A DNA stretch of 61,094 nucleotides, counting the filler, from Sphacelaria rigidula (Eukaryota), in assembly GCA_964200075.2 (NCBI GenBank). It is 9 parts of 9 records of this genome, joined end to end, with 100 filler letters (N's around TTAATTAATTAA, not from the genome) between each part and the next. Parts side by side here need not be neighbours in the genome. Positions count along the whole stretch, not along the records: positions 47,597 to 54,295 come from CAXNAA020018541.1; 8 more parts are not named here. One strand, given 5' to 3'. The notes beneath the pieces are model-generated. The model did not search any database. It had not been told where the DNA came from and worked only from the letters and a program-made list of their open reading frames with translations. How positions within the stretch are numbered: position 1 is the stretch's first letter; every line of letters starts with the position of its first letter. The translations under genes were made by a program, and so were the position numbers. Positions 20,403-61,094 of this stretch are shown piece after piece.

Positions 20403-20522
20403 TTCTCACGCTTTCCACGGTGGAAATGATACATCACGAAGGAAAAACCCAACGCATCGGGAATCGAACCCCCGTTCTCTCCACCCTAACGACGACAGTC
20501 GGACCATTACACCACCGGGCGC
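20403..20522 (-). mobile_element. tRNA-derived SINE family 2 head, cut by the contig end
   Basis: Minus strand GCCCGGTGGTGTAATGG...GGTTCGATTCCCGATGCG followed by ATTTCCACCGTGGAAAGCGTGAG, shared with 36565-36681. Confidence 0.75.
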
Positions 20523-21728: not shown

Positions 21729-21984
21729 CACGGTTAGGACGAATCATCACGACTTCGCATAGCCAGATCCACGATTTCTCCGGCCTGATGGCCCAAAAGG
21801 GAGAAAAAAGTTGACCGCTAGTCCAAGGGGTATCCACGCAACTTTTGCGCCATTCCACGCGTCTGGGCTGCGTGTACCTGGGTTGCAACGCTGAAAACAA
21901 AGCCTAGGGATTGATTCGTACGAGTCGAATCGACTACACTTGAACCAATTAGTTTCAGACGAATCATTATTTGTCCAACCCTTG
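21729..21984. mobile_element. hAT-type MITE family A, copy 2 (256 bp)
   Basis: TIRs CACGGTTAGGACGAAT / ATTTGTCCAACCCTTG and a perfect 8-bp TSD GATCCTTT (21721-21728, 21985-21992). Confidence 0.9.
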
Positions 21985-26927: not shown

Positions 26928-27847
26928 GTGAGCAGACGGCCTTGTCTTGCGATTAGGAGCTTCGATTGCGTTGTATTCACTCTCTGATCAGGTTTTCAAC
27001 GAATTGCTGTCTTTGCGGTATATATATACTTCCTCTGTCCCATATGTAAAGTCCTTCATGGGCTTTCAATCGTTTGTGCATTCAAACTCTTCCGATCATN
27101 NNNNNNNNNNNNNNNNNNNNNNNNNNNNNNNNNNNNNNNNNNNTTAATTAATTAANNNNNNNNNNNNNNNNNNNNNNNNNNNNNNNNNNNNNNNNNNNNG
27201 CGGGTTCCTGTCGTTTGATTTACCTTTGAGCCCTTTATTCCGGGGGATCCCCCCCCCCCCCCCCCCCCCCTCCCCCCCCACGTATTGTAGCATGACTCAG
27301 CGACAGAAACTAAATGCACTCTCGCTCATGTGTATCACTTTCATCACTGATGAAACTTGTAGGTGAGACAAGATAATTGTGCCATCTCAACAGTTTCATG
27401 AATTTCATGAATTTCTGTGCATGGTGTTCGGGGTACGCGGTAGGTTTCCGACTCGGAATACGCGGGCTCGTTTTTGCTGCATGCGCGCTTTTTTTATTGC
27501 CACACGCGTGTGCGCTTTTGTGTTTCATATTTGTGAGGATAGTGTTACACTGTCAGAAAAGTCACTCACCATACAAGCAGATTGACGGTTATTTGCGAGT
27601 TCGATAATAACCGTCCTTTCCCCCCGCCAAAAAATTCTCACGCTACCTCTATCTTTTTCTGTTCTCCCCCGTCGCCCCCCTCCTTCCCCCTCCCCCTTTT
27701 TTCATGCGCCTTGTATGATTCTATTTTATTTCCTGTCTGTGTGTGCACCTCTCGTCGCTACGCTTGCTGCTACCGCCACCTCTACCGCCACCACCCTATT
27801 GCACGCCGTGGCGGCACCCGATGTCGTTACCCCCCCCTCTCCCCAAG

Positions 27848-36419: not shown

Positions 36420-36681
36420 GTCTCAAGGGATCACCAACCCATCTCTCCCTCGGTACGCGCCTTGCATTTTGGTCTCGCGGGTTGGGTCATGACTATCAGC
36501 AGTCCCGTACCGCGTCAACTCACGTCAAGCAAACTCGGTCGACTACTTTGTTTACATGACATCTCCTCACGCTTTCCACGGTGGAAATCAGACATTGCGA
36601 AAAAAAAAAAACGCATCGGGAATTGAACCCTCGTTCTCTCCACACTGATGGCATCGGCCGGACCACTACACCACCGGGGCG
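36420..36681 (-). mobile_element. tRNA-derived SINE family 2
   Basis: Minus strand GCCCCGGTGGTGTAGTGG...GGTTCAATTCCCGATGCG, with the body shared with 20403-20522. Confidence 0.75.
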
Positions 36682-37839
36682 CGTCGGCAATCTGACAGAG
36701 TGAGTGAAAGATTGTGGAAAATGGACTAATGCCCAAGGATTCCAGGCGGGATCGAAAGATAAGACAGACGCATCCAGGGTGAACAAAACGGGAAACACCT
36801 GCTGGAGGAGACAAGGGACGGGAAACGATTGAAACAAAAAAAACTGAAAGACCACGGAAGGAGAAATCAGCAGACAAAAAAAAAATGAGGATCGAAACTC
36901 AAAAATGCCCTCGTGTAAAAAGTCATTTCCAAGTGCGCTCGTCCGTGTTACGTCACCGCCAACGTTTGCGTCACTGGAGTTGTATGTACGACTTACACTA
37001 TACCAGACGTTCGATTCACATATAGATAGGTAAAGGTGAAAATGTCCACATGAAATGGTGCATACAAAATACATACCCGGCGGGAATGGTTCGGCTTTTT
37101 TTTTTCTTCCTTTCCTTGAAAGTTCGGTTTTGCTCGAACAAGAAAAAAGAGAAGGAAGGAAAACGTGCCGCTGCTTTCTCTCTCGTGAAGAGTTATAATC
37201 TAGCTAGCCTATGCAGAGCAAAACTACCACGTACTTAGTTGTTCCCCCTCCTGAAACACGAACTCCCCCCCCCCCTTTCCCTCTCAGGGAAAAAAACATC
37301 CACAGAGAACCTGCATCAGGAGCCATGCTATCATTGTTGTCTACACTACTGTTCTTATTATTATTCTCGCACATTAGTCCGGTCTCTCGAACCCGTGGTC
37401 CCTGCTATTCCTCACAAGACATGGAGTTATCATCGTTTCTTCTCGGGCTTCGAACAAAATGAAAAAACTAAACGAACAAAACAACAACGAATGAAGATAA
37501 GAGAGCACGGGTTTCCAGAACCCTACTCGGTGAGGGGGCACCCACCTCCAGATTTCGAACGAAGAACTCCCACCCACACTCCGAGCCGTCCACGTCCATC
37601 AGGTCATACACATCGTCTGGGGTTTCCAATGCCAACCCGCCCTGGAAAAAGACGGAGTGGTTGGTCGTCACGCCTATATATGTACGTATGTGTGTACGTA
37701 CATACGTGCTTAGCACACGCAATGCAGATCGTGGAATATATATTTTTTTTAGAAAAGAAAAAAAATGGACACGTCTAGTATGCATGCTTGCCGCTGCAGG
37801 TTTGCACGTCGATGTCCCTCTGCACTGTACATTGACTAC

Positions 37840-38809: not shown

Positions 38810-39067
38810 CGCGATTAAAACGAATCATGGCCGGTTCGAATCACCAAATCCACTATTTTTTAGGCCCGATTGTTTCAAAGAAAGAAAAAAGTCAACCGCT
38901 GGTCAAACAGGTCTCCACGCAATTTTTGCGCCATTCCACGTGCCTGGGCTGCGCGTACCTGGGTTGCAAAGCTGAAAACAAAACCTGGGGATTAATTCGT
39001 ACGGTACAAACCACATACACTAAAATCAAGTAATTTCCAGACGAATCATTGATTCGTCCGAGCCTTG
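38810..39067. mobile_element. hAT-type MITE family A, copy 3 (258 bp)
   Basis: Body homologous to 1230-1487, with TSD CAAAATTC (38802-38809) / CAAGATTC (39068-39075). Confidence 0.88.
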
Positions 39068-39148
39068 CAAGATTCGTCGACGTAACCAACAACGTAAACG
39101 AAACGGACAACGCCTCCTAAAAAAGAAGACAAAACATATTAGAAGGGA

Positions 39149-39191
<43 letters not shown>

Positions 39192-42100
39192 TGCATGCGC
39201 AGATATCGAACTCTTGGGAGAAACATTCGGACGAGTAGTGACAATACATCTCTTTTTTCGGTCCTTGGCTTGCACTCTACACTATAACCACGCCCTTCCA
39301 TTGGGTCGGCACTCCCCCCTCAGCCCGTTAAATTTCATTTACCTTTTTTTTAATAAGATATTTTCGTCGACTTTTCAAGTACAAAAAACAGCACAAGAGT
39401 GAAGGAAGCAGTGCAGGTGTCGATCCACTCGGCTAACGTACAACAAACACGATCCCACCCAGGAATACCTGCAGGAATTTACCCGACGGCAATTTTGTTA
39501 CTCACACTTCCAAAAAACATGAAGCAATCCCGGAAAAGAAGAAAAAATGATTGGGGGAGGACGGGACGACGGGACGTACTCATTTAATGCTTGGCTGGAG
39601 TCGTTCGACTACTGACCACGCATCCTTTTCGAGACGGAGCACCGTTTTTACTCCTAATAGAGACACCTCCAGCTTTTGGGCACTCATTACACTTCTTTCA
39701 TACATAACATTGTACACATTCCATCCCTCCTGGAGGGGGTGTGCTCATGATCATGCATGCTATAGTCATAAGACCATTGGAGGGGGGGGGGGGGGGGCGG
39801 GGCGATGAACAGAAAAGAAAACAATGAAAACAAAATCTCAAAAAAGTTCCAGTGGTGTGTGGTTACAGGGGCTTGGATATACCTGAAAACTAAATACCGT
39901 TCGTCCTTGGTTCTATTATACTTCTCTCCAACAACCACCACCACGCGTCGCACGCAGAAACAGATTGTGAACGCACAATCATTGTATTGCCTCTCTGAAC
40001 CCTTTTGCAACTCGCGAAACACAATACAAACTCCCACATGCGAACTTTTGTCTCCGGGAAAACGTCAGTTCGAGTGTGATGCACGAGTCTGCCACATTAG
40101 TATACTTGAACTTAGAGTAGCGCACTGTTGTGGTGGGCCGCATCATCAACACTTGCAGAAAAACACCCATAATATCTTGCCCAAGGAAAAGTCAATTGTA
40201 AAATCGTCATTTTTCCATCAACGGTTCCAAAAGGGTTAAACAATGGCCACTGCGTCGCGGGCAGAAACAGGTCAAAGGTTTCGCTACTTTCCGGCGATTG
40301 TGCGCTGAATTATTACTATTATTGTTGTTGTATGGTCATTATGTTCGTCACAATAGCTCGATCTCTCCAACCCGTGATCACAGAGTGCAAGGAGCATACC
40401 ACCCATACCCATAAATCAAATAGCCAGCAGAGGAAGGAGTATACATCAACTAAGAATAGGGTGACGAGTGCACTGCGCCAAGGTAAGAGGGGGCTTTAAT
40501 GGGTCCGACCTCTACACTGTCTTGAGCAAAGCTTGCGCAAGCTCGAGGCGTCTACCCCCACATGACTGCCGCGAAGCAGCCTAACCGAGTCTCCGTGTAA
40601 ACGACACACGAACCCGCTTGCGTGGTGCGTGAGTGTTAGGTCAGGTTTCCTCCTTCCTTCAAGGAAGAAGATACAGTAGTGGGCGGTCTAACTGTTCNNN
40701 NNNNNNNNNNNNNNNNNNNNNNNNNNNNNNNNNNNNNNNNNTTAATTAATTAANNNNNNNNNNNNNNNNNNNNNNNNNNNNNNNNNNNNNNNNNNNNCCG
40801 GTGCTGCTTTCAACGACGATATGACTCGAAATTTCGAGCAACAAATGGCCCAGAATACCCCCCCCCCCTATCGTAGGATGACTCCTATCCCGCCAGTAGT
40901 GTGCCTCATTCGAGCCGACGGCGGCAGACAGTTCTTCACGGGCCTAAGCACGCGTATTTGTTGAGGTGTTGTGATCGGAAAGTGAGCTCAACCAATTCCG
41001 CAGAGCCCAACTGCACTACCAGCTGCCCCTGAAAAGCTGCACGTCGACATTTCGTCGCTCCTTCAGGTGCTGACGGCAGACCAAGAGCGATTGGCCACCA
41101 TCAGCTCCGGTGCCATTCGAGGAAAGGCGAACGTGGAACCACTCAAGTTCGTGTCCATGCAAGCGGACGCAGCAGCCCAAACGGCATTCGCGTTACCGAT
41201 TTGCTCGCCGTTGACACACGGCACAGACAGATGAGAGAGCAGTTATCGCGACAGCACGGGTAACGAAACATGTATTTCCCCTGCCCCCCCCGCTCACGCT
41301 ATCTCCGAAACATTCGGCGACCGACGGCGGGACAAAAATGCTCACTCGTGCACCTGCAATCACACCACGATGAACCGACACCTACAACCCTGGTTCACTT
41401 TGTCATCCCACATGGACCTGAACACTTGCCTCGGGGTGTTGAGCGCCCCGGAATCGCCTTTGAACTGCTGAACTGGCCCCTTAGCTGCTATTCCATTTTT
41501 CTTGTCAGGGTTTCTTCATCAGGCTAGAGTCGAGTGATTTTTCCAACCCCGGCCTTTAACACGATCACTTCAAATTCACCCTTACTCTACGGATACCATT
41601 CACCATGGCCGTGGTCAGTGCGCAAATCTAATCGCCGGACGGTGGCGAATATGCCACACCCACGATGTTTCGGCGCTAGTTAGTCCCTCCATCTAACAAA
41701 ATTGAACGACAGTCATTTATCAGTCGAATATTCGATAGGTTGTTCCCTGCGACCATGTTGGACTTGATACAGTTAGACAGTTAGGCCATGACCGCTGGTG
41801 AATTTATATTTCAGTCCGATACGTTTGTTCTACACTATTCTTTTTTTTTTGCGCCCCCCCTCTCTTCAATTTTTCCCCTGCTTTTCTTCGGCCCCTAGAA
41901 TTGGAGGATTCCTTTCATCTTCATTCTCTACCCCTCATCTCGGAAAACACAAGTGCACCACACAGTATTTTGCGTTTTCCATATCCGCATGTATTTATCG
42001 GCGGTGCTTTGGGCTTGCACCTACACCGCGGGCCAAACCACGATTCATCGATAGGAACGTACATACCTTGAGTACCAGCCACCCCATACTGTGGGATGCG

Positions 42101-47162: not shown

Positions 47163-47596
47163 CAGTTTATGAATAACAACTGTCTTGAAGCCTCCAGGTC
47201 CTAGTGAGGGAGGAAGCCCTTGGAGCAATCTTGTGACCCTGTTCTGAGTCCAGGAGGGCTCTATAATATACGTTTATTAAGAGGAACCCACTGCTTTCTG
47301 GAAGAGGTTTTTCAGCTGTGGACAGCTGCGGAGAAATTATATCAGACTCCGTACACACGAGTGTGCACTCTGTAAAGTGAGGGAGCTCGCTGACAAAGGA
47401 GAGACGGCTAGATTCGCTGGAACTGTTGCGTGCAGGTATGGCAACGCGCAAGAAAGTGGGTGATGGCGATGCAGGCGAAGAGGTGAAGTTGAAGTGNNNN
47501 NNNNNNNNNNNNNNNNNNNNNNNNNNNNNNNNNNNNNNNNTTAATTAATTAANNNNNNNNNNNNNNNNNNNNNNNNNNNNNNNNNNNNNNNNNNNN

Positions 47597-50495
47597 AGAC
47601 CAGCTCACCAAGGTTCTTTGTTGGAAAATGTGCGTTTAGATCCTCCGCCAACTTGTTGCACACATCCTCAGCACCTACAACGAACATGTCATCGACGTGA
47701 ACCACAATCAGAACTTTGATCTCCTCGCCGTCCATCAGCCTGAACACACATGGATCTATCAAACTCTGTTCGAAACCAGACCTTTCAGAGTCTTCCCCAG
47801 TTTCCCGTACCACTCTTTAGCAGCTTGCTTCAAACCATAAAGCGTCTTGTGCAAATGCACGACAGTGCCAGATCGTTCACCCAAACCTGGCGGTACCCTC
47901 ACGCACACGTTATCCTCTAGTTCCGACTGAACGAAAGCTTGCTCAACGTCAAATGAAGAATCGACTTTCCCTCTGCGCAAGCTACCGCTGCAGCTACTCG
48001 GTTAGTCGTAGTGGGTGGGGTTGGCGAGAACGTCGGAATGGCGCCAATTTCTTGCCGATCACCCCTAAAAACCAGTCGAGCCTTAGCCTTCATCACGTAA
48101 CCATGTTCATCGGTTTTCCACTGAAAGACCCACTTCGAATCGATTGATTTCTCTCCAAACGGGGATGAGTCAACTACGGCGCACGTGTTATTGCGTTCCA
48201 GTCCCTCTACTTGCTTCTTCATCGCGTCCAACCACACACTCTTGTACTTTGAACTGCGCACATCCTTCACAAACTTGGGGGCTGACTCAATCTCATCAAG
48301 AGTCACGTATGGGATCAACTCCAACCCAGACTTCCCTGAGTGTCTTGGGTCCTCCGTTGTTGCCAGCTGAGCTAGGATTTGTTCCGTAGCCCACAAATCC
48401 CCCCTGGCTGTCCACAACGCTTTATGATCACCCTCATGCTCCCGCAGGTCTGGAACTTGCTGTTGAAGTCGCTGCTCCTGACGCTGCTGCAGCAGGGCAC
48501 GTGTCTGTTGCCTTGTCCGGCCAAGTGTCGGCTCAACCGAGTCAGGTTGATTCGCAGCATCCCCGCTGCCGCCGAGAGACGATGTCTCCGAAATATCATC
48601 ATCAGAGGATAAAAACGAAGCAGACGGCTGCTGGCCAGAGTCTTTGCCGTTGTTGCCGCCTCGCTCCTCCTCAGGTTCCACCATCCCATCAGGTTCCACC
48701 ACCCCATCTGCCACACGTTTAAACAAAGCATCACCCGGAACCCCCCCACCAGTGCCGAGATCCGACTCGTCAGAGTCAGAGTCAGAGCTCTCGACATCGC
48801 CCTCCCCGCCCTCCACATGCTCTGTGTTTTCCCCTCCCGACATGAAAAAACGGACCGCTCGCTGCGATTTTGGGGGTGGGTGAGTGCTGCCAAGTAACAT
48901 CGCGAGTAGTGATTACATATCTGCCTTTCGTCTGCATTCTCATGGTATCACGGGGATAGTTGCAGCCAGGTCCTAAGTAAAAACACTCCTGTGCTTTCGG
49001 CATACACTTCGACGTCCTATTATACCTACAGTATCCTGGCTTGAAGACAGGGAGAAGCTTGATATTAGGCACTTCACCGTAAAACACCTCATCTGGGGAC
49101 TTCTTCCCAGGGTTAGCAGTAGTAGCAGAACGGTTCAACGCATCTGCTGCCCAACGATACGACTCAGCCCACATCCTTGCCGGAACATCCACGCCATACA
49201 GTACCTTTGCCTGAATCCTAGCTGCCATAGCGGCTTTCTCAATCATCGCGATTGCCCGTTCGGCAACGCCATTGCACTCGGGGCTGTCTGCTGGGGTGTA
49301 CTCTTGCCTTATGCCACGCTCACGACACACATCACTGGAAGAACCTGGAAACTCTCCACCACCGTCAGATCTTACGGTCTGTGACGGTTAATAGGCAATC
49401 GACTAGACTACCGTACAGTCAGCGAGCGCTGACTGTACGGTAGCCTTTTCGGTTGCTTGTAAATCGTCACAAAAAGTTAGTCATAGGGGTTCGATCCCCG
49501 TCACTTTCACCCCGAGGAGGGCGACTCCCCTTGCCAGCGCTGTTCAACTGTTCGCACTCACGGTATCGGTCTAATGCTGCCACACGTATCCATTCGGAGT
49601 TACTCGTCTCCCCCACTCATTTCCAGAGTGTGTGCACTGGGGTCCCTAGCAGTCAACTCGGGGATTGGACTCTCCCCCATCACCCTCTTTTTTCAACGGA
49701 GGTAGGGTTTTCCTCTTTAACTTCGAAGAAAGTGCGTCCGACGGGAATCGAACCAGCGACAAACTTTTGTGACGATCTATAGGCAATCGACTAGACTACC
49801 GTACAGTCAGCGAGCGCTGACTGTACGGTAGTCTTTTCGGTTGCCTGTAAATCGTCACAAAAAGTTAGTCATAGGGGTTCGATCCCCGTCACTTTCACTC
49901 CGAGGAGGGCGACTCCCCTTGCCAGCGCTGTTCAACTGTTCGCACTCACGGTATCGGTCTAATGCTGCCACACGTATCCATTTGGAGTTACTCGTCTCCC
50001 TCCCCCACTCATTTCCAGAGTGTGTGCACTGGGGTCCCTAGCAGTCAACTCGGGGATTGGACTCTCCCCCATCACCCTCTTTTTTCACCGGAGGTAGGGT
50101 TTTCCTCTTTAAAGTCGAAGAAAGTGCGTCCGACGGGAATCGAACCAGCGACAAACTTTTGTGACGATTTACAGGCAACCGACTAGACTACCGTACAGTC
50201 AGCGCTGACTGTACGGTAGTCTTTTCGGTTGCCTGTAAATCGGCACAGGTCTCTATAACTGAGAGATGCACTGTGCTCCTACATCAGCCAGGTATTACTT
50301 GAACGCCCTCGTGGTGTCAGACTTATGTCTCCCGGAATACATCCAGATTTTCCGGGTGAAATCATCCCAGATGAGAAAAGCGTGCTTCATGCCACCTGCA
50401 CTCTCGACCAATTTCGAGTCAGACGCATCCATGAACACACGCTCAAAAGGCCAAGCTGCACGCGTAGTGGTGGACGTAAGGATGGGTTTCCGCAA
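47597..50495 (-). mobile_element. Ty1/Copia LTR retrotransposon pol relic (integrase followed by RT), frameshifted and interrupted
   Basis: Integrase FERVFMD...DDFTRKIWMY, IETVRSDGGGEF (split by an insertion), TPADSPECNGVAER. RT SKWVF...KAKARLV, FDVEQAFVQ, LYGLKQA, VHVDDM. The INT-before-RT order is diagnostic of Copia. Confidence 0.95.
49380..50247. mobile_element. Unclassified 868-bp non-coding insertion: three ~90-bp palindromes (head-to-head tRNA-like halves) separated by two ~296-300-bp spacers
   Basis: Palindromes at 49380-49471, 49768-49859 and 50160-50247. TG...CA termini and a 4-bp TSD GGTC (49376-49379, 50248-50251). Removing it restores the Copia integrase IETVRSDGGGEF. Confidence 0.9.
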
Positions 50496-50499
50496 CAGA

Positions 50500-53400
50500 A
50501 TCTCGAGGCGATCGTCACGGTGGACGGGGCCGTGCCAACCAGGGACGCGGCCGCGGCGGCTGCGATAGCAAGCAATCGGCGGCGGATGGTGGTTCCTTCG
50601 CTGCTGTTTCTTCCACTACGTCATCAGGTGGTGACTCTGGATCTTATGGTTCGTCCGTGTCGGGGCGGACAGTGTACGTGGAAAATGCAGATACTTCGGA
50701 GGGGAATGCTGGAGCGAATAGTTCGCAACCCCTCGGCCAGGCAGGATCCGTGTCTGGTGCATCTCCTACTGCTGCGACGGCTGTAACAGCGCCGTCTGCA
50801 TATTCGGCGACTTGGTCTGGTTAAACCGACGATGCTGGTTATCGATGTCAAGTGCTGGAGGGCAGCCCTGGCGTCAGGTGACTCTTGGCACCGACCAGGG
50901 TTCTTCGGCAGGCGTGGTACTTATCGATCGCAAGGCTGAATGCTTACGCGCAGATCTTTCCTTGCCTGGTTCCGTAGGTTCGTTCATGCCCCGCATTATT
51001 CTAGATTCTGGGTCCGCGCTCACGTCGATCAGTGTGGGGTTGCTAGAACAAATGTCTTCGCAGTTTGGCGGTGCTCAGCTTCAGATTCCGTTCGAAAACG
51101 GATCGCAAACGGCACAGACCGCCACGGGTGCTCCCGTGACAGTTGCACACGAAATGGTGCCGATTACTGTAAGCGTGTGTACGCCGCGGGGTGCGGTGGA
51201 GTTGCAGCCAATTACTTTCGCTGTCATGCCCGGTAGGGACAGCGTGGTTCTATTTGGGATGGCGACGATGAAGGAGCTCGAGATTGATTTGTACCCGCTG
51301 GCGTTGGACAAGTTACGCCCGCGTGCTGCGCCGGTGCAGACCGGCGTGGAAATCCCAGCTATCTTGTTGCAAGGCGTGTGACCGTATCCATACGGTCATT
51401 CCAGAGCGCCAATGAGGAGGAGGCTCCTGCGGATGAAGCGGTGGAGCGCTTGGTCGATCGGGGGCCCGACGTATTCATGGACCCTGTGGAGGAGAGAGGT
51501 GCAAGAGAACGTGCGCTGGAGGATAGCGTGCAGCAGGCCGAGCAGAAGGGCCTGAACGCCGATGGCGCATATCGCCTGCGTGATATTTTGGCTCGTCGCG
51601 TGGATACATTTCATCGTGCGCTGCGTGGTGATCCGCCAGCGCGCGTAGAGTCAAGGAGGGAGGCTGTGAAGGCCAAGCCTCGCCGGTACGATCCGGTGAA
51701 GACCGTGTGGCTTGCCTCATGCACCGTAGCTTTGGTGGCGTTTGGTTTAGTGATGAGGAACATCCAGGCTGTGTGAGCGAGTCCGGCGATGGCGGTGCCA
51801 AAGAGGGACACATTCCGTTCGGTCAGCGACTATCACACGGTGAACGCGCAAATGGAACAGCCTCCGGGGGTGATGCCGAGCCAAGAAGACATGCGGGAGT
51901 TGCTGGGAGCCCAATGCTCCGGCAAGTTGGACCTGCTACAGGGGTAATGGTAAATGCCTCTGGCGCCGGAGGCTCAGGAGATCTTCACGATCGTCACGCC
52001 TGACGGTTTGTTTACGCCAGGTGAAGCTCGCTTGGTGAAAGTTCCTACAGTGCCTGTTCGTTCTGTTGCCATGTACAGCCCGTGTGATGCCGATGATTCG
52101 CTGCCCCCGTTAGATGCCATTCGTACCGCGCAGCACAAAATAGTCGGCGACGGTGTTCATGCTTTTCCCAAGACTTTCGGTCAAGCTGCTTTGAAGCTGA
52201 CGATGGTTTGTTTCGCGTGCGTGTTGGCAATAGTGATGTTTCTTGGGATCCGTCGGATGAAAAGGCTCCACAAACTCGCTTGATGGTGTGCGCTCACATC
52301 CGGTCGGCTGGTCACCGTGGTTTGGCGCAGACTCTGTTTTGTCTTAAAGAATACTGTGTGTGGCCTCACATGGATTCCCACGTTCGCGAGTTCGTTCGCC
52401 AGTGTTTTCATTGTGTAGACACTCGTGCTGGTGAGATTGTTCCTCGTCCGTATGGCGATACTGTGCATGGTACTGCGCCAGGTGAAGTTATTCACTTTGA
52501 TTTTCTATACGTCGGAAGTAGCGGACCTGAAGGTGCTAATGGTTTGCCTGAGGAGGATGGTTTTCGGTACGTTTTGGTCATCATCGGATGATTTGTCCAA
52601 GTTCGTTTGCTTGGAGCCGACCGAAGCTTGCACCGCCGAGGCTACGGCTAAGAACTTGCTCCATTGGTGCAAGACTTTGGGGTTGCCGCGTGTTTGGGTT
52701 AGTGATACCGCCACACACTTCAAGAACCGAGTGATGGCGCAGCTGAGCGATGCGCTCAAGGTGCAACACCAATTTGCTGCTGCGTATACCCCTTGGTCGA
52801 ATGGTGCTTGTGAGCGCATGTTGAAAGAAGTTATTCGTGCGTTGCGATCTGTTTTGTCGGAACAGAGACGGCCGGTGTCTGAATGGCTTGATGTTTTGCC
52901 AACCGCTCAGCGGGCGTTGAATATTTCTTTTCGTGAACGCTACCGTAACACTCCGTATTGTGTGATGTTTGGGCGTACACCGCGTTCAGCGTTTTCCGCG
53001 CTGGCTTCTGTCACTGCCGGCGAGTGGAACGTCGATGTCATGGATGCTGATTTGTTGCGTGACAAGGTTCGAGGCGTGGTTGACGAGCAAGTGCGGTTTT
53101 GTAACGAAGTGCAAGCTGCTGTCGCGGTGGCGCGCGAAACCAAACGCAAGCTTGCTCAGGGCCAGGCTGTGTTGCCTAAGTTTGCAGTTGGCGATTCGTA
53201 TTGTATGCCCGTGTTCGGAGGCAAGGTGTGACGCCAAAGTTGACATCCACGTGGACAGGTCCGTGGAGAGTGGTCGGAGCCGATCATGCTCGAGTGTATC
53301 CGGTGCAGAACATTGTTTCTGGCGCCGTGCACTCGGCCCATGTCGCTCGTTCACGCTTCTACGCTGTCTCGCAGTTGCACATCACTGCGGAACTAAAAGA

Positions 53401-53726
53401 CGTATTTCAGCATTCGTGTGCTCAAGGTGAAAGTCGGATGAATGCTTTGGTGCACGTCGCTGAGGATGACAGGGTTGATGCCATTATTTTGGTTGGCAGG
53501 GAAGGGTTCGGTGCTGAAGAACGTACGTGGGAGTCTCTTCGCAAGATTCATTCTTCTGCGCCTGGTTTTGAAGGAACTGCGTAAAATGAGGTTGGCTCGG
53601 GCGCTGACCAGTAAATTAGCGTCGGAGTATGGTATTTCGTTGTGATCTTCTGGCGCATGCGATTTCGCCTTGGTTTTTGTTGGTTGTCAAGCTCGTTCGT
53701 TTGTCTTGAACTCGCTTTGGGGGTGC
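50500..53726 (+). mobile_element. Ty3/Gypsy (chromovirus-type) retrotransposon relic with an internal RT/RNase H deletion
   Basis: Protease IILDSGSA, RT start (KLDLLQG*W*MPLAPEAQEIFTIVTPDGLF), integrase zinc finger (CAH..SAGHRG...CFHC) and core (VSDTATHF, PWSNGACER), GPY-like TWTGPWRV, and chromodomain-like LVGREGFGAEERTWESL. Confidence 0.93.
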
Positions 53727-54227
53727 TGTAGCCAAATGATTAAGCCGTAGGTTTCAGTATAATCGTATGCATGATTGGAGCAGTCGCAGGGGACAGGGGA
53801 TCCTGGATTGATGACACTCATCTGTGTGGCCCCTTGCTGTCTGGCTCATGATATGGTCTGTTTCTGAATCACTCCGCAATAATAACAAGTCAGAAGAAAG
53901 GACTTGTCAAGCACGAGGCCAGTGCTACAGGAGGAGTCCCTCGTGGATAGTCCTCTTGTCCAGATCGTCTGGCAGAGGCTATACCTAGCAGCTTTGCACA
54001 CTTTGGTCGTGGATGAGTTATACAGAAAACAGTGGATTCTCGAAAATGGGGTTGAAAAATGAACTGAGGTTCGACGCAAAAGCCGCGCTTTCCCTGACCT
54101 GAATTCATGACAAGTGACTTTCATACGGACGACCCTATCCCTCCCGACCTCCCTAAAACTATTTCGTTTTTCTTTACCCTTCCGTTTCCCCTGAGGGTAT
54201 ACTTCCTCTGTCACATAAGTTAGAACC
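53727..54227 (+). repeat. Probable 3' LTR of the Gypsy element, partial and carrying insertions
   Basis: Starts TGTAG immediately after the G-rich tract TTTGGGGGTGC that follows the chromodomain ORF. Confidence 0.55.
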
Positions 54228-54295
54228 TGTGACGGTTTAAGAGACAACCAACTAGACTACTGACCAGTCAGCGCTGACTGGTCAGTAGTCTAGTT
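54228..54295. mobile_element. Second, truncated copy of the palindromic tRNA-like element
   Basis: TGTGACGGTTTAA...ACTAGACTACTGACCAGTCAGCGCTGACTGGTCAGTAGTCTAGTT, ending at the contig end. Confidence 0.85.
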
Positions 54296-54469
54296 NNNNN
54301 NNNNNNNNNNNNNNNNNNNNNNNNNNNNNNNNNNNNNNNTTAATTAATTAANNNNNNNNNNNNNNNNNNNNNNNNNNNNNNNNNNNNNNNNNNNNGTCTT
54401 CCCTGCAAAAGAGAAATGCCACTTCAACCTCATTTTTGTATGAACCCCATTTTCTAGGAACCACTGTTT

Positions 54470-54879
54470 TTAATTGAGGATGAGAAACCCGGATAATTAA
54501 AATCTTCGTATCCACACCGAACCTTCGAAATATGACTCCATTTGTACATCTACTAATAGCTATTGAAAACTGCTACACCCCACATAAATTTGGATTTCGG
54601 TAACCGAAATTCTGGGGTCCTAGGGGAAAAACCAATTTTGGGGAATTCCGGGTCTCCGAACGGACGCCAAAATGGTTCTGAAGTTGTTTTTTCACGTAAG
54701 ACCCCAAACTTCCGGTGATCGAAATTCTAATTTCTGTGGCGTGTAGCAGTCGTCCATAGCTATCAGTAGGTGAAGAAGTAGAACCATATTTTGAAGATTT
54801 GGTGTGGATACGAAGTTTTTAATCATCCGGGTTTCTCACCCCCAATAAAATATTCATCCCCAAATTGTAGGATCCCGTG
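54470..54879. mobile_element. Foldback-like hAT-type MITE family B, left end truncated
   Basis: Homologous to 59270-59709 and ends in ...GTAGGATCCCGTG. Confidence 0.8.
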
Positions 54880-55400
54880 TCAATACCTGAGCTCTGCACC
54901 ATACATTGTCGACATGCCCATGTCTCTCGCGATATCCCATCAACGTCTATGCTTCCATCATCTCCTTGCCAACGAACGAAGGGCCCCACGACCACTCACT
55001 GCCACGCGATCTCCCATCTCATGGGGTGTCTACCGCGATACGATCCCCTCCCCCCTCTAATCATTTCATTCGCGGCTCCAACATAAACCGCACATCATCA
55101 CTACGGCGTGCTGCATTGTAGTGTATGTTGGCCCCGGTTATCCACATTTCGGTCTCAAACAAGACTTGTTGTGTTGCGGTGGAAAGCGGGATCGCCGTCA
55201 AGGAGGCGCTGAAGAAACAAGGATATAGGTACCTTCGCGACGGGGTATGTGACGAAATCACGCCGTCACGTTGAGTATATGATGACTGGACGATGACTTG
55301 GGATCTGTAGTGATGATATGGATGATGACATGGACACAGAGGTGTTACCCTGATGTGGTTTGTGGAGCCGCCTGGGAGGCACTCCGGGAATAATAAAAGG

Positions 55401-56058: not shown

Positions 56059-59000
56059 GTTCGAGAAGGTTCAGAAATTTTCGATTGTCCGCTCCAGAAT
56101 ATCGACTACAGAGATACCGGCAATAGAGCCAGCGGAGACGACGGTAACCCCAGTCGTTCTAAGGGAAGAGTTCAGGCCGCCCAGGTACGGGAATTTGTAT
56201 TCTGAGTGTGCTTCTCGTTCGTTCTACACGAAATACGTGGAATACAAGAAGAGGGTGGAGCATGCGAATGCGGGGGGTGCGGTAAGGTATCAGGTGGTTT
56301 CCATGGCGCAACTCGTGCCTACCCCCCTCCAACGCGTCTTCGCGAGAAGATTCCATGAGAAGCATACCATAACGCCGCTGCAATTGGCCGTAGCGATCAA
56401 AAAGCATGCAGGGCATGCGGCGGGCGCGGAAGTAAAGCTAAGACAGGCGTCCGCGGCAGCGGCGAAGGCTGTCGCAATGAACCACAAGGGGAGGACCATG
56501 CGTGAGAGGGTGGAGCCCATAATGGGTAAGTTGGAGACGTATTTTTCGGAAAATCCCAACGTCGAGATAGTTTATCGTTCCTCCGATGGGAAATTTCGTC
56601 CAGGGCCCGCTGCGGTGTTCACGAAAGCGATGGTGGAGGGTCCGGCATCGGCGGAATTCAAACAGGCCGTGCTTGTGCAGTTACAGCACGAAAAAAACTA
56701 GAAGTCAGACCCGTATTTAGATATGAATATCGTGTTGGCTGAGGCTCAGGCATGGCGGAGGGTTGAAGTATTCGGAAAGTCATCCACTTCGTCGCCGCAG
56801 TCTTCGAGCTCGCGTAACCGCGGATCAAAATCCGCAGGCAGTGTCGCCGCCAATATTACTTACTATCAGTGTGGTCAGGTAGGCCACTACGCACGGAAGT
56901 GCCCAACGCCTTCTGAGGGGGAATCTGGGCAGACGAGTGCCGCGCGCCCTCGCAATCACAAAGGAGGGAAAAGTTATCGGGGTGGTGGCGGACGCGGATC
57001 CTGCAGCGCGTACAGTCGAGTTCCCAGCAGCAGGAGCAGCAGGGGCAGTGGCGTCAGCAGAGGTCCGGCTCTGGGTCCGGTTCAGCCGCAGGGGCTGCTG
57101 CTCCGCAACGGGCGGTGCAGGTGGGACCGACCTCACTAGTGTCGGGCTCGGTGCCAGCGCCGCCGGCAGCAGAGCAAGGCGAGACGCCTGCGGCGGAGCC
57201 GGCCGGATTTCAGCTGAAATTTGGATCCGCAGCCGCGTCGGCCGGAGTACCGCTGCAATTTGGTTCTGCGGGTGGGGCTTCGTACCCGCCGGCGGTGCCG
57301 GTGACCCCAGCGAGGGCGTCTATGCCTGCGCCGCGCGCGCAGCCGTGGCGCCAAGTGGGGATCACGACCAATCAGTCGGCGGAACAGGTGCCGGTCGAGG
57401 ATCAAGACAATTATATTCCTGCATAGTTATATCTCCCCAATCAACGGGCGCGGGGAGCCATATCGGTCAACGCTGTGTGGTACATTCCGGCGCCCACTTC
57501 ACGAGCGTGCCGGTGCTGATTGTGGAGATTCTGGAGCGTCTACTCCCCGGTGAGCAAATCCGAATTTCGTTCTCGCTCGGGGCGCGGCAGGCCATCACCG
57601 CATCGGGGCAACGTATAAATGTGACGGAGCGTACAATTCCCCTACAGTTGGTGTTCAGGACTACCTGGGGGCCAGCGAAATTACCCCCGATATCGTTTGC
57701 GATCATGCCGGGGACGGATGGTGTCGTTCTGTTGGGCTTACCGACGCTTCAGGGACTCGGAGTCGATCCGTATGATCGGCTGTTAGAGCCCCTAAAAACG
57801 CAAATGCCGTCGCCCGGTTCGAGTGTCGAGGCGCCTGCTCTTTTGGCCAGTCGTCGCGTGAGCTTGTCGGTTGATGCTCTCCAGGAGGCGGGGGGCAGGT
57901 GTCCGAGGATCGCCATGAGGTGGTGGAACGCTTGGTGGAGCGTGGCTCCGATATGTTTATGGAGCCGGCGGAGGAAGAGTCCGCGCGAAAGGCTGCGCTT
58001 GAGGAAAGCGTGATGGATGCTTTGGCAAATGGTCTCGAAGTCTCAAAAGCGAGGCGCTTGCGTGGCATATTGTATCGCCACGTTAACACGTTTTGTCGTG
58101 TGCTGAGGGGTGATCCCCCTGCGCGCGTGGAACCCATGAGGGTCACACTGAAGCTAGGGGCGCCCGCGGTGAAGGCAAACCCGAGGAGGTATGATCCGGT
58201 AAAGTCCAGTTAGTTAGCTTCTTGCATGGGAGCTCTTGTGGCGTTTGGGTTGGTGTTCAGAAATCTACAGGCGGTGTGGTCCAGTCCACCGATGACCGTG
58301 CCGAGAAGGACTCTTTCCGTCTTGTCAGCGATTCCGGGGCCGTCAATGATCAGGTGGAGAAGTCGCCGGGTGTCATGCCCAATCAGGAATCCGGCATGAT
58401 AGACCTGTTGAGTGCGTGATGCTTCGGTAAGTTGGACCTCCTACAGGGGTACTGGCGGATGCCGTTGGCCGAAGAGGCGCAAGAGATGTTCATCATCACG
58501 ACCCCGTATGGCATGTTTACCCCGCAAAGAGTACCGCAAGTCGTGTTGAATGCCACTTCCTATTTTCAAGGTGTCATGGTAGACCTTTTAGATGGCTTGA
58601 AATGCAAGATTTGGGTGGATGATGTATTTTTCTTTGCGGATACGGAAGACGAAGTGTTGGATACGCTTGATGCAATCTTGGCTCGCTTAGAGAGTGTTAG
58701 TCTGTTTGCAGCTGCCCACGAGTTACCTTTTTTGCTAGTGAACGAGTGTGGTGTGGGAAAGTATACTCACACGGTCGCGTCTCGCATGACCCGGTCCGCT
58801 TGCAAGGTTTGTCTGACATGCGGCGTCCAGAAACAGCAGCAGAACTAATGCAACTCCTACACGCAATGAACTGGTTGCGTACCTCGTTGCTACGTATGGC
58901 CGAAGCAGTGGCGCCCTTGCGCGTTTTTCTAGAAGAACTAATGGTGGGGGCTGCTGCAAGGCGCACGAAGCGGGTGGCAAAAACCATGTTATTCCACCCG

Positions 59001-59269
59001 CCTCGTGGACGGAGGACAGGCTGCAGGCATGGGCGGCAGCGAAGGATCTGGTGGCTCATGCCGTGACGCTGTTCCATCCCCGCCCCGGTTGCCAGGTGCT
59101 GATGTTTCCGGATGCATCCGACTGTCATGGGGGTAGTTTTGTAACGCAGGTGCCTGTTGCAGAAATGCAACGACGGTTGCCGGTTGAAGACATGACGCAT
59201 GAACCGCTGGCTTTTCGTAGTGGCTATTTCAAGGATTCACAGATGCGTTGGGCAACCATTGACAAGGAA

Positions 59270-59709
59270 CACGGGATCTTACAAATTTGGGATGGATCTT
59301 TTATTAGGGATGAGAAGCCCGGAGAATCAAAATCTTCGTATCCACATCTAATCTTCGGAATATGGTCCCATTTCTTCACCTCCTAATAGATTTTGACGAC
59401 TGCTACACGCCATACAAATTTGGATTTCGATCACCGGAATGTTGGGGTCCTAGGTGAAAAGCCAATTTTGGGGAATTCCGGGTGTCCGAACGGACGCCAA
59501 AATGGTTCCGAAATTGTTTTTTCACCTAGGACCCCAACATTTCGGTCATCGAAATTCAAAATTCTATGGCGCGTTGCAGTTGTAAATAGCTATCAGTAGG
59601 TAAAGAAATGAATCCATATTTCAAATATTTGGTGTAGATACGAAGTTTTTGATTCTCCGGGTTTCTCATCCCCAATAAAAGATCCATCCCCAATTCGTAA
59701 AATCCCGTG
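59270..59709. mobile_element. Foldback-like hAT-type MITE family B (440 bp) inserted in the Gypsy RNase H
   Basis: TIR CACGGGATCTTAC / GTAAAATCCCGTG with long imperfect inverted arms. TSD ACAAGGAA / TTAAGGAA. Removing it restores WATIDKEGFASVSTFRR. Confidence 0.9.
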
Positions 59710-60580
59710 TTAAGGAAGGTTTTGCTAGCGTGAGCACTTTTCGTCGTCCCGAGCATCTATTGTGGAACGGCGTACACATTTTCACTGATCACCGAAATCT
59801 AGCGTACATTTTCAACCCGGAGGCATGCGTGACGTCTGTGTCGAAGGCGTTGGCACAGCGATTGGAGGGGTGGAAAGGTGTATTAGGTCAGTATCGCTAT
59901 ACAATTTGTCATATTTCGGGTGAACGTAACGCGTGGAGTGACTTCTTGTCGCGCTGGGTAAATATTCCCACTTTGCCTGCGCGCGCTGTGGCTGTGTATG
60001 GTCCGTGCGAACCTGATGACTCGATGCCGTCCAAATCTGTTGTTCGCCAAGCGCAACGAAAAGACCTTGGGGCCGACGATGCGGATGTGCAATATTTCGA
60101 GTCGGACGTTGGTACTGCTATTTTGGACAATGAAGGTCTGTTTCGTGTTTATGTGCGTGGCCGAAACGTTTTGTGGATTCCGAGTTCTGACAAGCAGTTG
60201 CAAGTACGTATGATGATTTGCGCGCACATGCGCGACGCCGGGTATCGTAGTGTGGCTGCGACGCTCGTGCGCTTGCAAGAGTTTTGTGTCTGGCAGGGGA
60301 TATAAGCTAATGTGCGCGAACTTGTCCGCCAGTGTCTTCACTGTGCTGACTCGAGGGCGGGCGATGTTGTTCCCCGCCCGCTCGGCGAAACGGTCCATGG
60401 GACCACGCTGAATGAAGTCGTTCATTTTGAATTCTTATACGTGGGCGAGAGTGGCCCGCTAGCTTCCCAAGGTTTGTCGGAGAATGCTGGATTCCGATAC
60501 ATTTTGGTCATCATGGATGATTTGAGCAACTTTGTGGCTCTGGAACCAGTAGCAGTGTGTACTGCTGAATCGACTGCTAA

Positions 60581-60878
60581 CAAGGTTTTCCTGAGATTGA
60601 GAGTTGGGTGCGGATTGAGAGTGGCTTTGATCATTCGCTTTAACTTGGCCAATTTTTCATTCCGTGTGTGTTTTTCGTCGTCTCATCACTGTCATGTGCT
60701 TACAGCTACACGTCGATATCCTACTCAGGGGTATCGAGGGCCTCAGTGGCAAGCCACTACAGAGAGGATATTGGGCCTGGCGGAGGTGCATTTTGGAACT
60801 GAAACGGCTTATTCACTAATCGACCGCTTTTCACTCTCAATCGTACCTTCAACAACTCTCAATTTCACGAAAACGTCG
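60581..60878. mobile_element. MITE (298 bp) inserted in the Gypsy integrase
   Basis: ~26-bp TIRs CAAGGTTTTCCTGAGATTGAGAGTTG / CAACTCTCAATTTCACGAAAACGTCG with subterminal ATTGAGAGT repeats. The integrase frame (CTAESTA...ASLLNWFKTLG) resumes after it. Confidence 0.8.
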
Positions 60879-61094
60879 TTTGCTGCGTCTTTGCTGAATT
60901 GGTTCAAAACTCTGGGGGTGCCCCGTGTGTGGGTGAGTGATACTGCCACGCATTACGAGGATGCGATCTTGGCCCGATTGCGAGAGGCTTTGCGCGCTGA
61001 TAACCAGTTTGCGGTAGCTATCAACAGCCGATTTGAAATTTCGGGGTTCATACAAAATATGGGGTTGAAGTGGCATATCTCTCTTGCACGAAAG

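What the first reader, a model, noticed from the sequence alone, without database searches (positions are those of the whole stretch)
49380..50247. Unclassified mobile unit built from palindromic, head-to-head tRNA-like repeats (P-spacer-P-spacer-P), with TG...CA ends and a 4-bp TSD
Seen: three 88-92-bp palindromes (TGTGACG...CAGTCAGC|GCTGACTG...CGTCACA) at ~390-bp spacing, two near-identical spacers, and a clean GGTC duplication in the Copia integrase it interrupts. In the internal copy each arm continues into a tRNA-like sequence; the minus-strand one reads TAGTCTAGTCGG (A box)...GGTTCGATTCCC (B box)...CGGACGCA. So two Pol III-type heads sit back to back. Known: TG...CA ends with a 4-bp TSD fit retroviral-type integrases (LTR elements, Ginger transposons); LTR-int-LTR-int-LTR arrays with Pol III promoters are known for Cassandra TRIMs, which use 5S rRNA; SINEs have tRNA heads but tails instead of TG...CA ends. 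I see no PBS, PPT, ORF or SINE tail here. Inference: a non-autonomous element that combines a tRNA-derived promoter with integrase-type ends, of a kind I do not recognise.
Basis: partly seen in the sequence, partly recalled or inferred. Interest (0 to 1): 0.8.

Follow-up and report, generated by a model that had tools for sequence, protein, structure and literature searches.

The report
Palindrome-ended mobile repeat in brown alga
A small gene-less mobile element with hairpin-forming end repeats and leftovers of a tRNA promoter has jumped into a dead retrotransposon gene of a probable brown alga; it is real and very abundant, but it looks like an odd variant of known element types, not a new class.

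Summary
Window 49380-50247 is P1-S1-P2-S2-P3: three 88-92-bp palindromes and two 296/300-bp spacers (period 388, 2.2 copies). It begins TGTGACG and ends CGGCACA and is flanked by GGTC. A T follows both copies, so the duplication is 4 or 5 bp. Public contigs of other copies of the host Copia element skip the whole block and keep one GGTCT, so this is a true insertion. A second, diverged copy starts with the same TGTGACGG at 54228. Its arms keep the palindrome through paired changes. Summed contig depth suggests thousands of copies.

The tRNA likeness is only at motif level. There is an exact B box and an imperfect A box, but no tRNA call by ARAGORN or Rfam. Elements that combine a tRNA-derived Pol III promoter with LTR ends and 4-5-bp duplications are already described (Helenus/TRIMp3, 2024). 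This one differs: the repeat is a palindrome, the B box lies outside it, and no PBS or PPT is visible. The two ends match further as inverted repeats (123 nt) than as direct repeats.

Best reading (0.4): a Helenus-like miniature LTR element. Main rival (0.3): a Ginger- or Sola-type DNA transposon derivative.

The parts
49376..49379 (.). Left copy of the target-site duplication GGTC (the next base, T at 49380, is ambiguous between duplication and element)
   Evidence: Direct reading. Empty-site contigs keep one GGTCT.
49380..49471 (.). P1, a 92-bp palindromic terminal repeat that starts TGTGACGG
49472..49767 (.). S1, a 296-bp non-coding spacer. Its first ~30 nt (b) and last ~35 nt (b') are inverted repeats of each other and extend the palindromes.
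   Evidence: The 112-aa stop-to-stop frame inside it has no Pfam family.
49768..49859 (.). P2, the internal 92-bp palindrome. With b' and b it forms a 151-nt palindrome at 49740-49890.
   Evidence: A 155-nt public unitig covers 49747-49901 with 0 differences (record 7).
49860..50159 (.). S2, a 300-bp spacer. It differs from S1 in 9 of 300 aligned columns.
50160..50247 (.). P3, an 88-bp palindrome with no spacer at its centre. It ends CGGCACA.
   Evidence: Unitig 50193-50327 in run X3 bridges P3 and the flank (record 14).
50248..50251 (.). Right copy of the target-site duplication GGTC
49787..49798 (-). A-box-like motif TAGTCTAGTCGA in the left arm of P2. Equivalents lie at 49399-49410 (P1) and 50179-50190 (P3, TAGTCTAGTCGG).
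49744..49754 (-). Exact B-box consensus GGTTCGATTCC in b' of S1. The S2 equivalent is at 50136-50146.
49488..49498 (+). Exact B-box consensus GGTTCGATCCC in b of S1. The S2 equivalent is at 49876-49886.
49829..49840 (+). Plus-strand counterpart of the A-box motif, degraded to TAGTCTTTTCGG, which creates a T4 run. Equivalents lie at 49441-49452 and 50217-50228.
49471..49475 (-). A5 on the plus strand, which is T5 on the minus strand, exactly at the S/P border. A second one lies at 49859-49863. These are the only runs of T>=4 on the minus strand of the element.
54228..54295 (.). Second, diverged copy of P (variant V). It starts TGTGACGG after an unrelated flank, and its arms show paired changes. 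It is cut by the end of a window chunk.
48785..49379 (-). Host gene: the downstream half of a decayed Copia integrase core (…VRSDGGGEF…NGVAER…). The upstream half lies at about 50252-50615.

Best explanation
This is a non-autonomous, gene-less mobile element of a probable brown alga.

Most likely original form: P-S-P of about 480 bp. Two ~90-bp palindromic mini terminal repeats beginning TGTGA and ending TCACA surround a ~300-bp non-coding core.

Shown: it inserted into a Copia integrase gene with a 4(5)-bp staggered cut.

Inferred:
- The enzyme is a retroviral-type DDE integrase supplied in trans by one of the Gypsy or Copia elements that crowd this genome.
- The intermediate is a cDNA. That makes it a miniature LTR element of the Helenus/TRIMp3 kind.
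- Its RNA comes from Pol III box A/box B relics that face outwards from the centre of each palindrome.
- The P-S-P-S-P form is a tandem of the LTR-plus-internal unit. It arose either by unequal P-P recombination or during replication, as is known for Cassandra and LTR-11_DR.

How reverse transcription would be primed is not shown. No tRNA-type PBS or PPT is visible.
For: - Real insertion with a TSD. 11 empty-site contigs in 3 of 4 runs skip 49380->50266 and keep one GGTCT.
- The TGTGA...TCACA ends fit the TGTNR pattern of Gypsy LTRs (PMC2836005, passages).
- A second copy starts at the same TGTGACGG after an unrelated flank.
- All three P copies carry the same arm asymmetry (CTAG against AAAG) in direct orientation. 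P therefore behaves as a direct repeat unit.
- The blocks best conserved between the two subfamilies seen are the terminus (CGTCACA), the A-box-like GTAGTCTAGT, the centre (GCTGACTG) and the B box. The loose-end consensus agrees.
- The B-box consensus occurs 5 times in the window against 0.54 expected, and 4 of the 5 are in the element.
- The A-like motif plus B box at 30-50 nt spacing occurs twice against 0 expected.
- Gypsy- and Copia-type integrases lie in the same and the next chunk.
- The precedent is in print. Helenus elements are TRIMs with tRNA-derived boxes, 4-5-bp TSDs and tandem arrays. Cassandra forms LTR-plus-internal-domain arrays (abstract).
Against: - No TGG-type PBS follows P on either strand.
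- Only 5-8 purines occur in the 15 nt before each P.
- The B box lies in S, outside the repeat, unlike Helenus.
- Neither ARAGORN nor Rfam calls a tRNA. At ARAGORN's relaxed threshold the element's 6 weak hits compare with 48 in the other 59.4 kb.
- The ends are homologous further as inverted repeats (123 nt, 81%) than as direct repeats (88-92 nt, 88%). A TIR element predicts this; an LTR element does not.
- On the strand with intact boxes, a T5 sits just before the next P. A Pol III transcript would therefore lack the U3/R needed for ordinary LTR regeneration.
- P copies differ about three times more than S copies: 5 of 92 positions against 5 substitutions in 296.
- P-centre depth is not above S depth, so there is no sign of a solo-LTR excess (a rough measure).
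Confidence: 0.4

Rival explanations
1. It is a non-autonomous cut-and-paste DNA transposon (MITE-like) with ~123-bp terminal inverted repeats (P plus b), TGT...ACA tips and a 4-bp TSD. It would be mobilised by a Ginger-type, or possibly Sola-type, DDE transposase. The outer 88 nt of each TIR happen to be self-palindromic, so the ends also look like direct repeats. The tandem form arose by unequal recombination.
For: - Inverted homology of the two ends reaches 123 nt at 81% (1-123 against 50247-50132). Direct homology stops at the P border.
- Ginger1 and Ginger2 have 40-270-bp and ~50-180-bp TIRs, TGTNR tips and 4-bp TSDs (PMC2836005, passages).
- No PBS or PPT is present.
[quoted passage not shown] That Sola makes 4-bp TSDs is recalled, not checked.
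Against: - The target TTACGGTCTCTA fits neither the Ginger1 preference (CCGG or CCGT) nor the Ginger2 preference (RTATAY).
- 'Ginger' occurs 0 times in the main text of the Ectocarpus TE survey (supplements not seen).
- The only integrase-bearing elements in the window have RT or are deletion derivatives of a Gypsy with RT.
- The model does not explain why the blocks conserved between subfamilies coincide with Pol III boxes at the right spacing.
- It does not explain the self-palindromy of the tips.
Confidence: 0.3
2. It is a 2.2-unit fragment of a ~390-bp satellite-like tandem family. Each unit would be a'-S-a with tRNA-like inverted ends, so unit junctions form the palindromes. The fragment reached the Copia by break repair or re-integration of extrachromosomal circular DNA, not by a dedicated end-recognising enzyme.
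For: - The block is a tandem array.
- Summed depths of the P centre (P3 type), the a'-b junction and the middle of S are similar, about 1.1-1.3 x 10^5 in X1. That fits long P-S arrays better than isolated P-S-P (the tool warns that depth is not copy number).
- The centre spacer varies between 0 and 4 nt.
Against: - There is a clean 4(5)-bp duplication.
- The two break points are symmetric, exactly at TGTGACG and CG(T/G)CACA.
- The independent copy at 54228 starts at the same base.
- Repair-mediated capture predicts neither feature.
Confidence: 0.08
3. It is a tRNA-derived SINE, or a dimer of SINEs, copied by a LINE through target-primed reverse transcription.
For: - Box A-like and box B motifs are present.
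- Abundance is very high.
- Abundant LINE-dependent short elements exist in Ectocarpus.
Against: - There is no A-rich, simple-repeat or LINE-like tail.
- The two ends are symmetric palindromes with TG...CA.
- The TSD is short and fixed, and there is no 5' truncation pattern.
Confidence: 0.04
4. It is an assembly artefact: a collapsed or expanded repeat, or a chimeric join.
For: - Palindromes and near-identical spacers are error-prone to assemble.
- No long read was available.
- The best holder run may be the sample that the window was assembled from.
Against: - P1, P2 and P3 differ from each other at 5-11 positions, so they are not one collapsed copy.
- A zero-mismatch unitig spans S1-P2-S2 (X1 record 7).
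- Another unitig in a second study spans P3 and the flank (X3 record 14).
- The TSD and the empty sites are coherent.
Confidence: 0.02

Closest known systems
Helenus / TRIMp3 (Kojima 2024, PMC10886601): TRIMs whose LTRs carry a tRNA-derived Pol III promoter
   Same: - Short and gene-less.
- Terminal direct repeats with TG...CA ends.
- 4-5-bp TSD.
- Box A and box B relics without a functional tRNA fold.
- Tandem arrays are seen (LTR-11_DR).
- High copy numbers.
- Presumed trans-mobilisation by Gypsy or Copia.
   Different: - Helenus LTRs are not reported as palindromic. The shortest LTR given in the parts read is 120 bp (Helenus-1_SMo) and the longest 323 bp. Here the repeat is an 88-92-bp palindrome with two heads back to back.
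- In Helenus both boxes lie inside the LTR. Here box B lies in the internal part on both sides.
- Helenus has a PBS and a PPT. Here none is recognisable.
- Helenus is not reported from stramenopiles (its Table 1).
Cassandra TRIM (5S rRNA promoter in the LTR)
   Same: - A Pol III promoter inside a miniature LTR element.
- Arrays of LTR plus internal domain (abstract of PMC7215508).
- A short R of 18 nt set by Pol III start and stop.
   Different: - Cassandra uses a 5S-derived promoter, not a tRNA-like one.
- It has a PBS and a PPT.
- Its LTR is not palindromic.
- It is found in land plants only.
Non-autonomous Ginger1/Ginger2 DNA transposons (Bao, Kapitonov and Jurka 2010, PMC2836005)
   Same: TGTNR tips, a 4-bp TSD, TIRs of 40-270 bp, and an integrase-type DDE enzyme.
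   Different: - The target preference is not matched.
- No Ginger transposase was seen in the window.
- Ginger TIRs are not described as self-palindromic or as carrying Pol III boxes.
tRNA-derived SINEs (SINE2)
   Same: A box A / box B head, shortness and abundance.
   Different: SINEs have a tail, no terminal repeats, no TG...CA ends and variable TSDs.
Parvovirus-type inverted terminal repeats (hairpin palindrome plus an inner D sequence); analogy recalled, not tested
   Same: Each end is a self-palindrome followed by a short inner segment that is inverted between the two ends. Here that is P followed by b, and b' followed by P.
   Different: - Here the DNA is integrated with a TSD.
- The units are in direct tandem, not head to head.
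- There is no Rep-like gene.
- This is a resemblance of form only.

Membership tests
TRIM / Helenus (TRIMp3) | Two terminal direct repeats (LTRs) around a short internal region, total length under 1 kb, no protein | tested here: met
   P1, P2 and P3 are direct repeats at 88-95% identity. The inferred P-S-P form is about 480 bp. The internal frames have no Pfam family and are broken by the 4-nt indel.
TRIM / Helenus (TRIMp3) | TG...CA ends and a 4-5-bp TSD | tested here: met
   The ends read TGTGACG...CGGCACA and the flanks GGTC(T). Empty sites occur in 11 contigs of 3 runs. Only one complete copy was available.
TRIM / Helenus (TRIMp3) | PBS next to the 5' LTR, complementary to a tRNA 3' end or anticodon loop | tested here: inconclusive
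   No TGG-type PBS occurs in the 20 nt after P on either strand. The recalled initiator-Met PBS 12-mer has no match in or near the element. An anticodon-loop PBS cannot be tested without the host's tRNA set, and the window holds 0 tRNA genes.
TRIM / Helenus (TRIMp3) | Polypurine tract next to the 3' LTR | tested here: not met
   5-8 purines occur in the 15 nt before each P on either strand. The nearest purine run of 8 or more nt ends 35 nt from P.
TRIM / Helenus (TRIMp3) | tRNA-derived sequence with box A (TRGCY...YGG) and box B (GGTTC) inside the LTR | tested here: not met
   Box A is imperfect (TAGTC...CGG or CGA) and is intact on one strand only. GGTTC is present but lies in S, about 17-23 nt outside P (17 nt minus strand, 21 nt plus strand). 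No tRNA is called by ARAGORN or Rfam.
Ginger (non-autonomous) | TIRs of roughly 40-270 bp with TGTNR tips | tested here: met
   Inverted homology covers 123 nt at 81% and the tips read TGTGA.
Ginger (non-autonomous) | 4-bp TSD with a CCGG/CCGT (Ginger1) or RTATAY-centred (Ginger2) target | tested here: not met
   The length fits (4, or 5 if the T is counted). The target TTACGGTCTCTA fits neither preference. This rests on a single site.
Ginger (non-autonomous) | An autonomous partner in the genome that encodes a Gypsy-like integrase without RT and has the same ends | not testable with these tools
   No genome is held. The window's integrases belong to Gypsy or Copia elements with RT, or to a deletion derivative.
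tRNA-derived SINE | A 3' tail (A-rich, simple repeat or LINE-derived) and no terminal repeats | tested here: not met
   Both ends are the same palindrome and there is no tail.
Retrozyme / Penelope-like tandem with hammerhead ribozyme | A hammerhead ribozyme in the repeat | tested here: not met
   There is no ribozyme family among the Rfam matches at E<=1 over 49000-50700. The recalled core CTGANGA is absent from both strands.

The most novel reading that the evidence does not exclude
This may be a new kind of integrase-mobilised retroelement that needs no tRNA primer.

- Each ~90-bp palindromic repeat would act as a two-way Pol III promoter whose transcripts start at the palindrome centre.
- Transcripts would stop at the conserved T4-5 run that abuts the next repeat.
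- The U-run 3' end would then pair with the A-run that follows the 5' half-repeat. In the predicted fold of the 342-nt minus-strand unit, the last 7 nt pair right next to ...CGUCACA and leave the 45-nt half-repeat as a 5' overhang.
- From that position the 3' end would prime copying of the half-repeat.

Probability: 0.12. Interest if true: 0.75.

Novelty: new variant of a known kind. Interest (0 to 1): 0.45.

Why it matters
- If the family really amounts to thousands of copies, it is one of the main repeats of a brown-algal genome. It would be misfiled as 'unknown', or as hundreds of tRNA pseudogenes or hairpin RNA loci.
- It would extend elements that pair a Pol III promoter with integrase-type ends (TRIMp3) to stramenopiles. 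Alternatively, it would reveal a Ginger- or Sola-type MITE with Pol III boxes.
- Its palindromic repeats are strong hairpin and cruciform formers. Transcription from repeats that face each other across S could yield double-stranded RNA, which matters for small-RNA silencing in a lineage reported to lack the usual repressive marks (PMC12477816, passage).
- The lack of a PBS and PPT, together with complementary PBS and PPT positions, makes an unusual priming route testable.

Tried and rejected
- Whole-genome census: no genome is held for the window.
- Public collections, exact-pattern scans, all with 0 hits: viral contigs 3 scans, metagenome contigs 2, genome contigs 2.
- Earlier findings of this scan: nothing by sequence or place. 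Word searches gave only unrelated yeast, Giardia and Saccharibacteria items.
- More copies in the window: nhmmer with the half-palindrome profile and with S found only the known copies at E<0.01. A TGTGACG...CAGTCAGC pair at 30647-30689 is chance. TGTGACG at 55248 with CGTCACA at 55491 is not an LTR of the neighbouring Gypsy.
- Expression: no RNA holder is listed among the 21 runs. Run X6 is only guessed to be RNA, and its S-to-Copia depth ratio resembles the DNA runs. Nothing can be said about transcription.
- tRNA identity: ARAGORN's relaxed (-ps80) folds give different anticodons for equivalent copies, and random sequence gives about 0.8 hits per kb. I dropped them.
- A recombinant origin for P2 (left part like P3, right part like P1): the 8 informative sites read P3, P3, P1, P1, P1, P3, P3, P1 along P2. 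That is only a partial fit, so it is not claimed.
- Self-primed copying in this particular copy: the arm that would be the copy (P1 right arm) differs from its supposed template (P2 left arm) at 7 positions. There is no direct support.
- Protein Atlas look-up of the integrase fragment: no taxa and no useful family.
- Literature: 10 full-text searches found no description of a palindromic LTR or TIR built from back-to-back tRNA-like heads, and nothing of the kind for brown algae. Repbase and Dfam could not be searched. The supplements of the Ectocarpus TE survey and of the Helenus paper were not seen and may hold relevant families.
Full report
**What is there**

Window 49380-50247 reads P1 (49380-49471), S1 (49472-49767), P2 (49768-49859), S2 (49860-50159) and P3 (50160-50247).

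- The repeat finder gives three direct copies of the P core at 388-nt spacing. The palindrome arms are 44-54 nt and 78-93% complementary, with 0-2 nt between them.
- TRF reports one array at 49380-50247: period 388, 2.2 copies, 95% matches.
- S1 and S2 differ in 9 of 300 aligned columns: 5 substitutions and one 4-nt indel.
- The P copies differ more: P1/P2 94.6%, P2/P3 91.3% and P1/P3 88.0% over 92 columns.
- Around P2 the palindrome continues into the spacers at 82% over 154 aligned positions (49740-49890).
- As single-stranded DNA this 151-nt stretch folds at -58.6 kcal/mol against -17.3 +/- 2.9 for shuffles. None of 200 shuffles does as well.

The window itself is nine ~6.7-kb chunks joined by N44-ttaattaattaa-N44 linkers. 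Only chunk 8 (47597-54295) is context for the element.

**It is a true insertion**

The flanks read ...TTACGGTC|TGTGACGG...CGGCACA|GGTCTCTA. GGTC is duplicated. A T follows both copies, so 4 and 5 bp cannot be told apart.

Four public runs were laid on 49100-50550. Contigs that skip 49380->50266 and carry one GGTCT followed by a slightly diverged continuation were found in X1 (5 contigs), X3 (5) and X6 (1), and not in X9. These are other copies of the host element without the insertion.

The host is a decayed Copia on the minus strand.
- RVT_2 matches lie at 47920-48912 and 47544-47816.
- The minus-strand reading ...SVIET|VRSDGGGEF...NGVAER is continuous over the empty site, with 35 residues between the D and the E.
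- Pfam does not call rve on either half alone, even at E<=10.
- In a search for longer homologues, 57 proteins passed E<=1e-5 among 626 candidates. 48 of the 57 carry PF00665 and 8 carry PF07727.
- All five hits that bear a name are from brown algae. The best is 83% identical and named from Sphacelaria rigidula; the others are from Ectocarpus and Scytosiphon.

The organism is therefore probably a brown alga near the Sphacelariales. This is an inference from those names.

**Is the array an artefact?**

- A 155-nt unitig of X1 covers 49747-49901 (S1 end, P2, S2 start) with no difference.
- A 135-nt unitig of X3, from another study, covers 50193-50327 (P3 into the flank) with 3 differences.
- The three P copies differ from each other, so they are not one collapsed repeat.
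- X1 may be the sample that the window came from. No long read was available, so the number of units is supported but not proven.

**A family, and an abundant one**

A second copy of P starts at 54228 with the same TGTGACGG after an unrelated flank, and is cut by the chunk end at 54295.

Its arms differ from those of P1-P3 at three positions near the centre, and the partner arm carries the complementary changes (CCGTACAG/CTGTACGG against CTGACCAG/CTGGTCAG). The palindrome is therefore maintained.

Loose ends of laid contigs show that most genomic copies of the start of S are preceded by this variant arm: 38 contigs in X1, 24 in X3 and 2 in X6 at 49860.

Summed contig depth in X1:

| Region | Summed depth |
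|---|---|
| Blocks of S | 1.1 x 10^5 to 6.8 x 10^5 |
| P3-type centre | 1.25 x 10^5 |
| Copia flanks | about 2 x 10^4 |
| Locus-specific unitig | 62 |

The tool warns that this is not a copy number. As an order of magnitude it points to thousands of copies. The middle of S (about 49659-49721) is replaced or deleted in many copies.

No further copy lies in the other 54 kb of the window.

**The tRNA likeness**

- ARAGORN finds no tRNA in the window, and none in the element at its default or -ps settings.
- At -ps80 it gives 6 weak, mutually inconsistent hits in the element, against 48 in the remaining 59.4 kb.
- Rfam gives no tRNA match at E<=1 over 1.7 kb, nor at E<=10 over 191 nt. It gives only sub-threshold hairpin (miRNA-type) matches.

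What is real is at motif level.
- The B-box consensus occurs 5 times in the window against 0.54 expected. None of 100 shuffles gave 5 or more.
- Four of the five are in the element, one in each end of each spacer, facing inwards.
- The A-box-like TAGTCTAGT followed 30-50 nt later by a B box occurs twice, both on the minus strand, against 0 expected.
- On the plus strand the same motif is degraded to TAGTCTTTTCGG in P2 and P3 and TAGCCTTTTCGG in P1.
- By the criteria used for Helenus (TRGCY...YGG and GGTTC), box A is imperfect and box B is met.
- Between the two subfamilies seen, the conserved blocks are the terminus, the A-like motif, the centre and the B box (with loose ends). This suggests constraint on a promoter.

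By recalled spacing rules for type-2 Pol III promoters, transcription would start close to the palindrome centre and run outwards on both strands.

**Signals expected of an LTR element**

- No TGG-type PBS follows P on either strand.
- The 15 nt before each P hold 5-8 purines.
- No hammerhead core is present.
- The two stop-to-stop frames inside S have no Pfam family and are put out of register by the indel.
- On the minus strand, the only runs of four or more T are the T5 at each S/P border. The plus strand has nine such runs.
- The 342-nt minus-strand unit is predicted to form a panhandle. Its last 7 nt pair right after ...CGUCACA (z = -2.2, with 1 of 100 shuffles as good). This follows from the inverted repeats b and b'.

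**Comparison with what is known**

Helenus, together with Ajax and Cassandra under the name TRIMp3, are TRIMs with a small-RNA-derived Pol III promoter in the LTR.
- Helenus has tRNA-derived boxes, 4-bp (animal) or 5-bp (fungal, plant) TSDs, up to thousands of copies and tandem arrays.
- The tRNA-like part rarely folds as a tRNA (PMC10886601; Results, Discussion, Introduction and tables read).
- Cassandra forms long arrays of LTR plus internal domain (PMC7215508, abstract).

Against membership:
- Helenus has a PBS and a PPT, and both boxes lie inside a non-palindromic LTR.
- Here the repeat is an 88-92-bp palindrome.
- The B boxes lie outside it.
- No PBS or PPT is seen.

The other close kind is Ginger, with TGTNR tips, 4-bp TSDs and 40-270-bp TIRs (PMC2836005, passages). 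The two ends of this element match as inverted repeats over 123 nt (81%) but as direct repeats only over P, which a TIR element predicts.

Against Ginger:
- The target does not fit either Ginger preference.
- The window's integrases belong to Gypsy or Copia elements. The PR-integrase stretch at 50722-53584 is a deletion derivative of a Gypsy like the one in chunk 9, which has RVT_1 and RNase H.

A recent curated survey of Ectocarpus TEs does not use the words Ginger, tRNA, MITE or palindrome in its main text; every 'trim' hit shown there is trimming or trimethylation, not the TRIM element class. It reports abundant DNA transposons, including Sola-1 (PMC12477816, passages; supplements not seen).

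**Verdict**

That part I hold at about 0.9.

| Reading | Odds |
|---|---|
| Helenus-like miniature LTR element with a palindromic repeat | 0.4 |
| Ginger- or Sola-like DNA transposon derivative | 0.3 |
| Tandem-family fragment, LINE-driven SINE or artefact together | about 0.15 |
| Unassigned | the rest |

The boldest reading not excluded is a self-priming, two-way Pol III retroelement (0.12).

It is a new variant of known kinds rather than a new class. Whether it is already catalogued could not be checked.

Noticed in passing
window 6701-6800, 13501-13600, 20301-20400, 27100-27199, 33899-33998, 40698-40797, 47497-47596, 54296-54395: The window is not one contiguous stretch. It is nine chunks of about 6.7 kb joined by N44-ttaattaattaa-N44 linkers at regular steps, so features that touch these borders are cut by the sampling, not by biology.
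   Followed up: yes
window 59269-59713 and 54469-54883: A separate ~415-445-bp foldback (self-inverted, 76-81%) element occurs in two copies that are 78-84% alike. One starts CACGGGAT and ends ATCCCGTG, and it interrupts the RNase H region of a Gypsy-type element. It is unrelated in sequence to the P family.
   Followed up: partly
window 50722-53584 (+): A Gypsy-type element has aspartic protease, integrase H2C2 and rve domains but only ~1 kb between protease and integrase. Compared with the related copy in chunk 9 (56883-61094), about 1.4 kb of RT/RNase H is deleted. It abuts the truncated Copia near 50650.
   Followed up: partly
window 20405-20527 and 36566-36687 (minus strand): Two 82%-alike copies of another tRNA-like sequence carry a B box (exact in one, one mismatch in the other). 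In the second copy a run of 12 T follows on the minus strand. It may be a tRNA-derived SINE head or a tRNA pseudogene family. ARAGORN does not call it at default settings.
   Followed up: no
window 1227-1495, 21726-21984, 38812-39075: An unclassified ~260-bp dispersed repeat occurs in three chunks at 79-86% identity.
   Followed up: no
window 50253-50300 (minus strand): The host Copia integrase has in-frame stops and a frameshift within about 50 nt upstream of the insertion site. Empty-site copies in public contigs have 14 letters where the window has 13, so this copy was or became defective independently of the insertion.
   Followed up: partly
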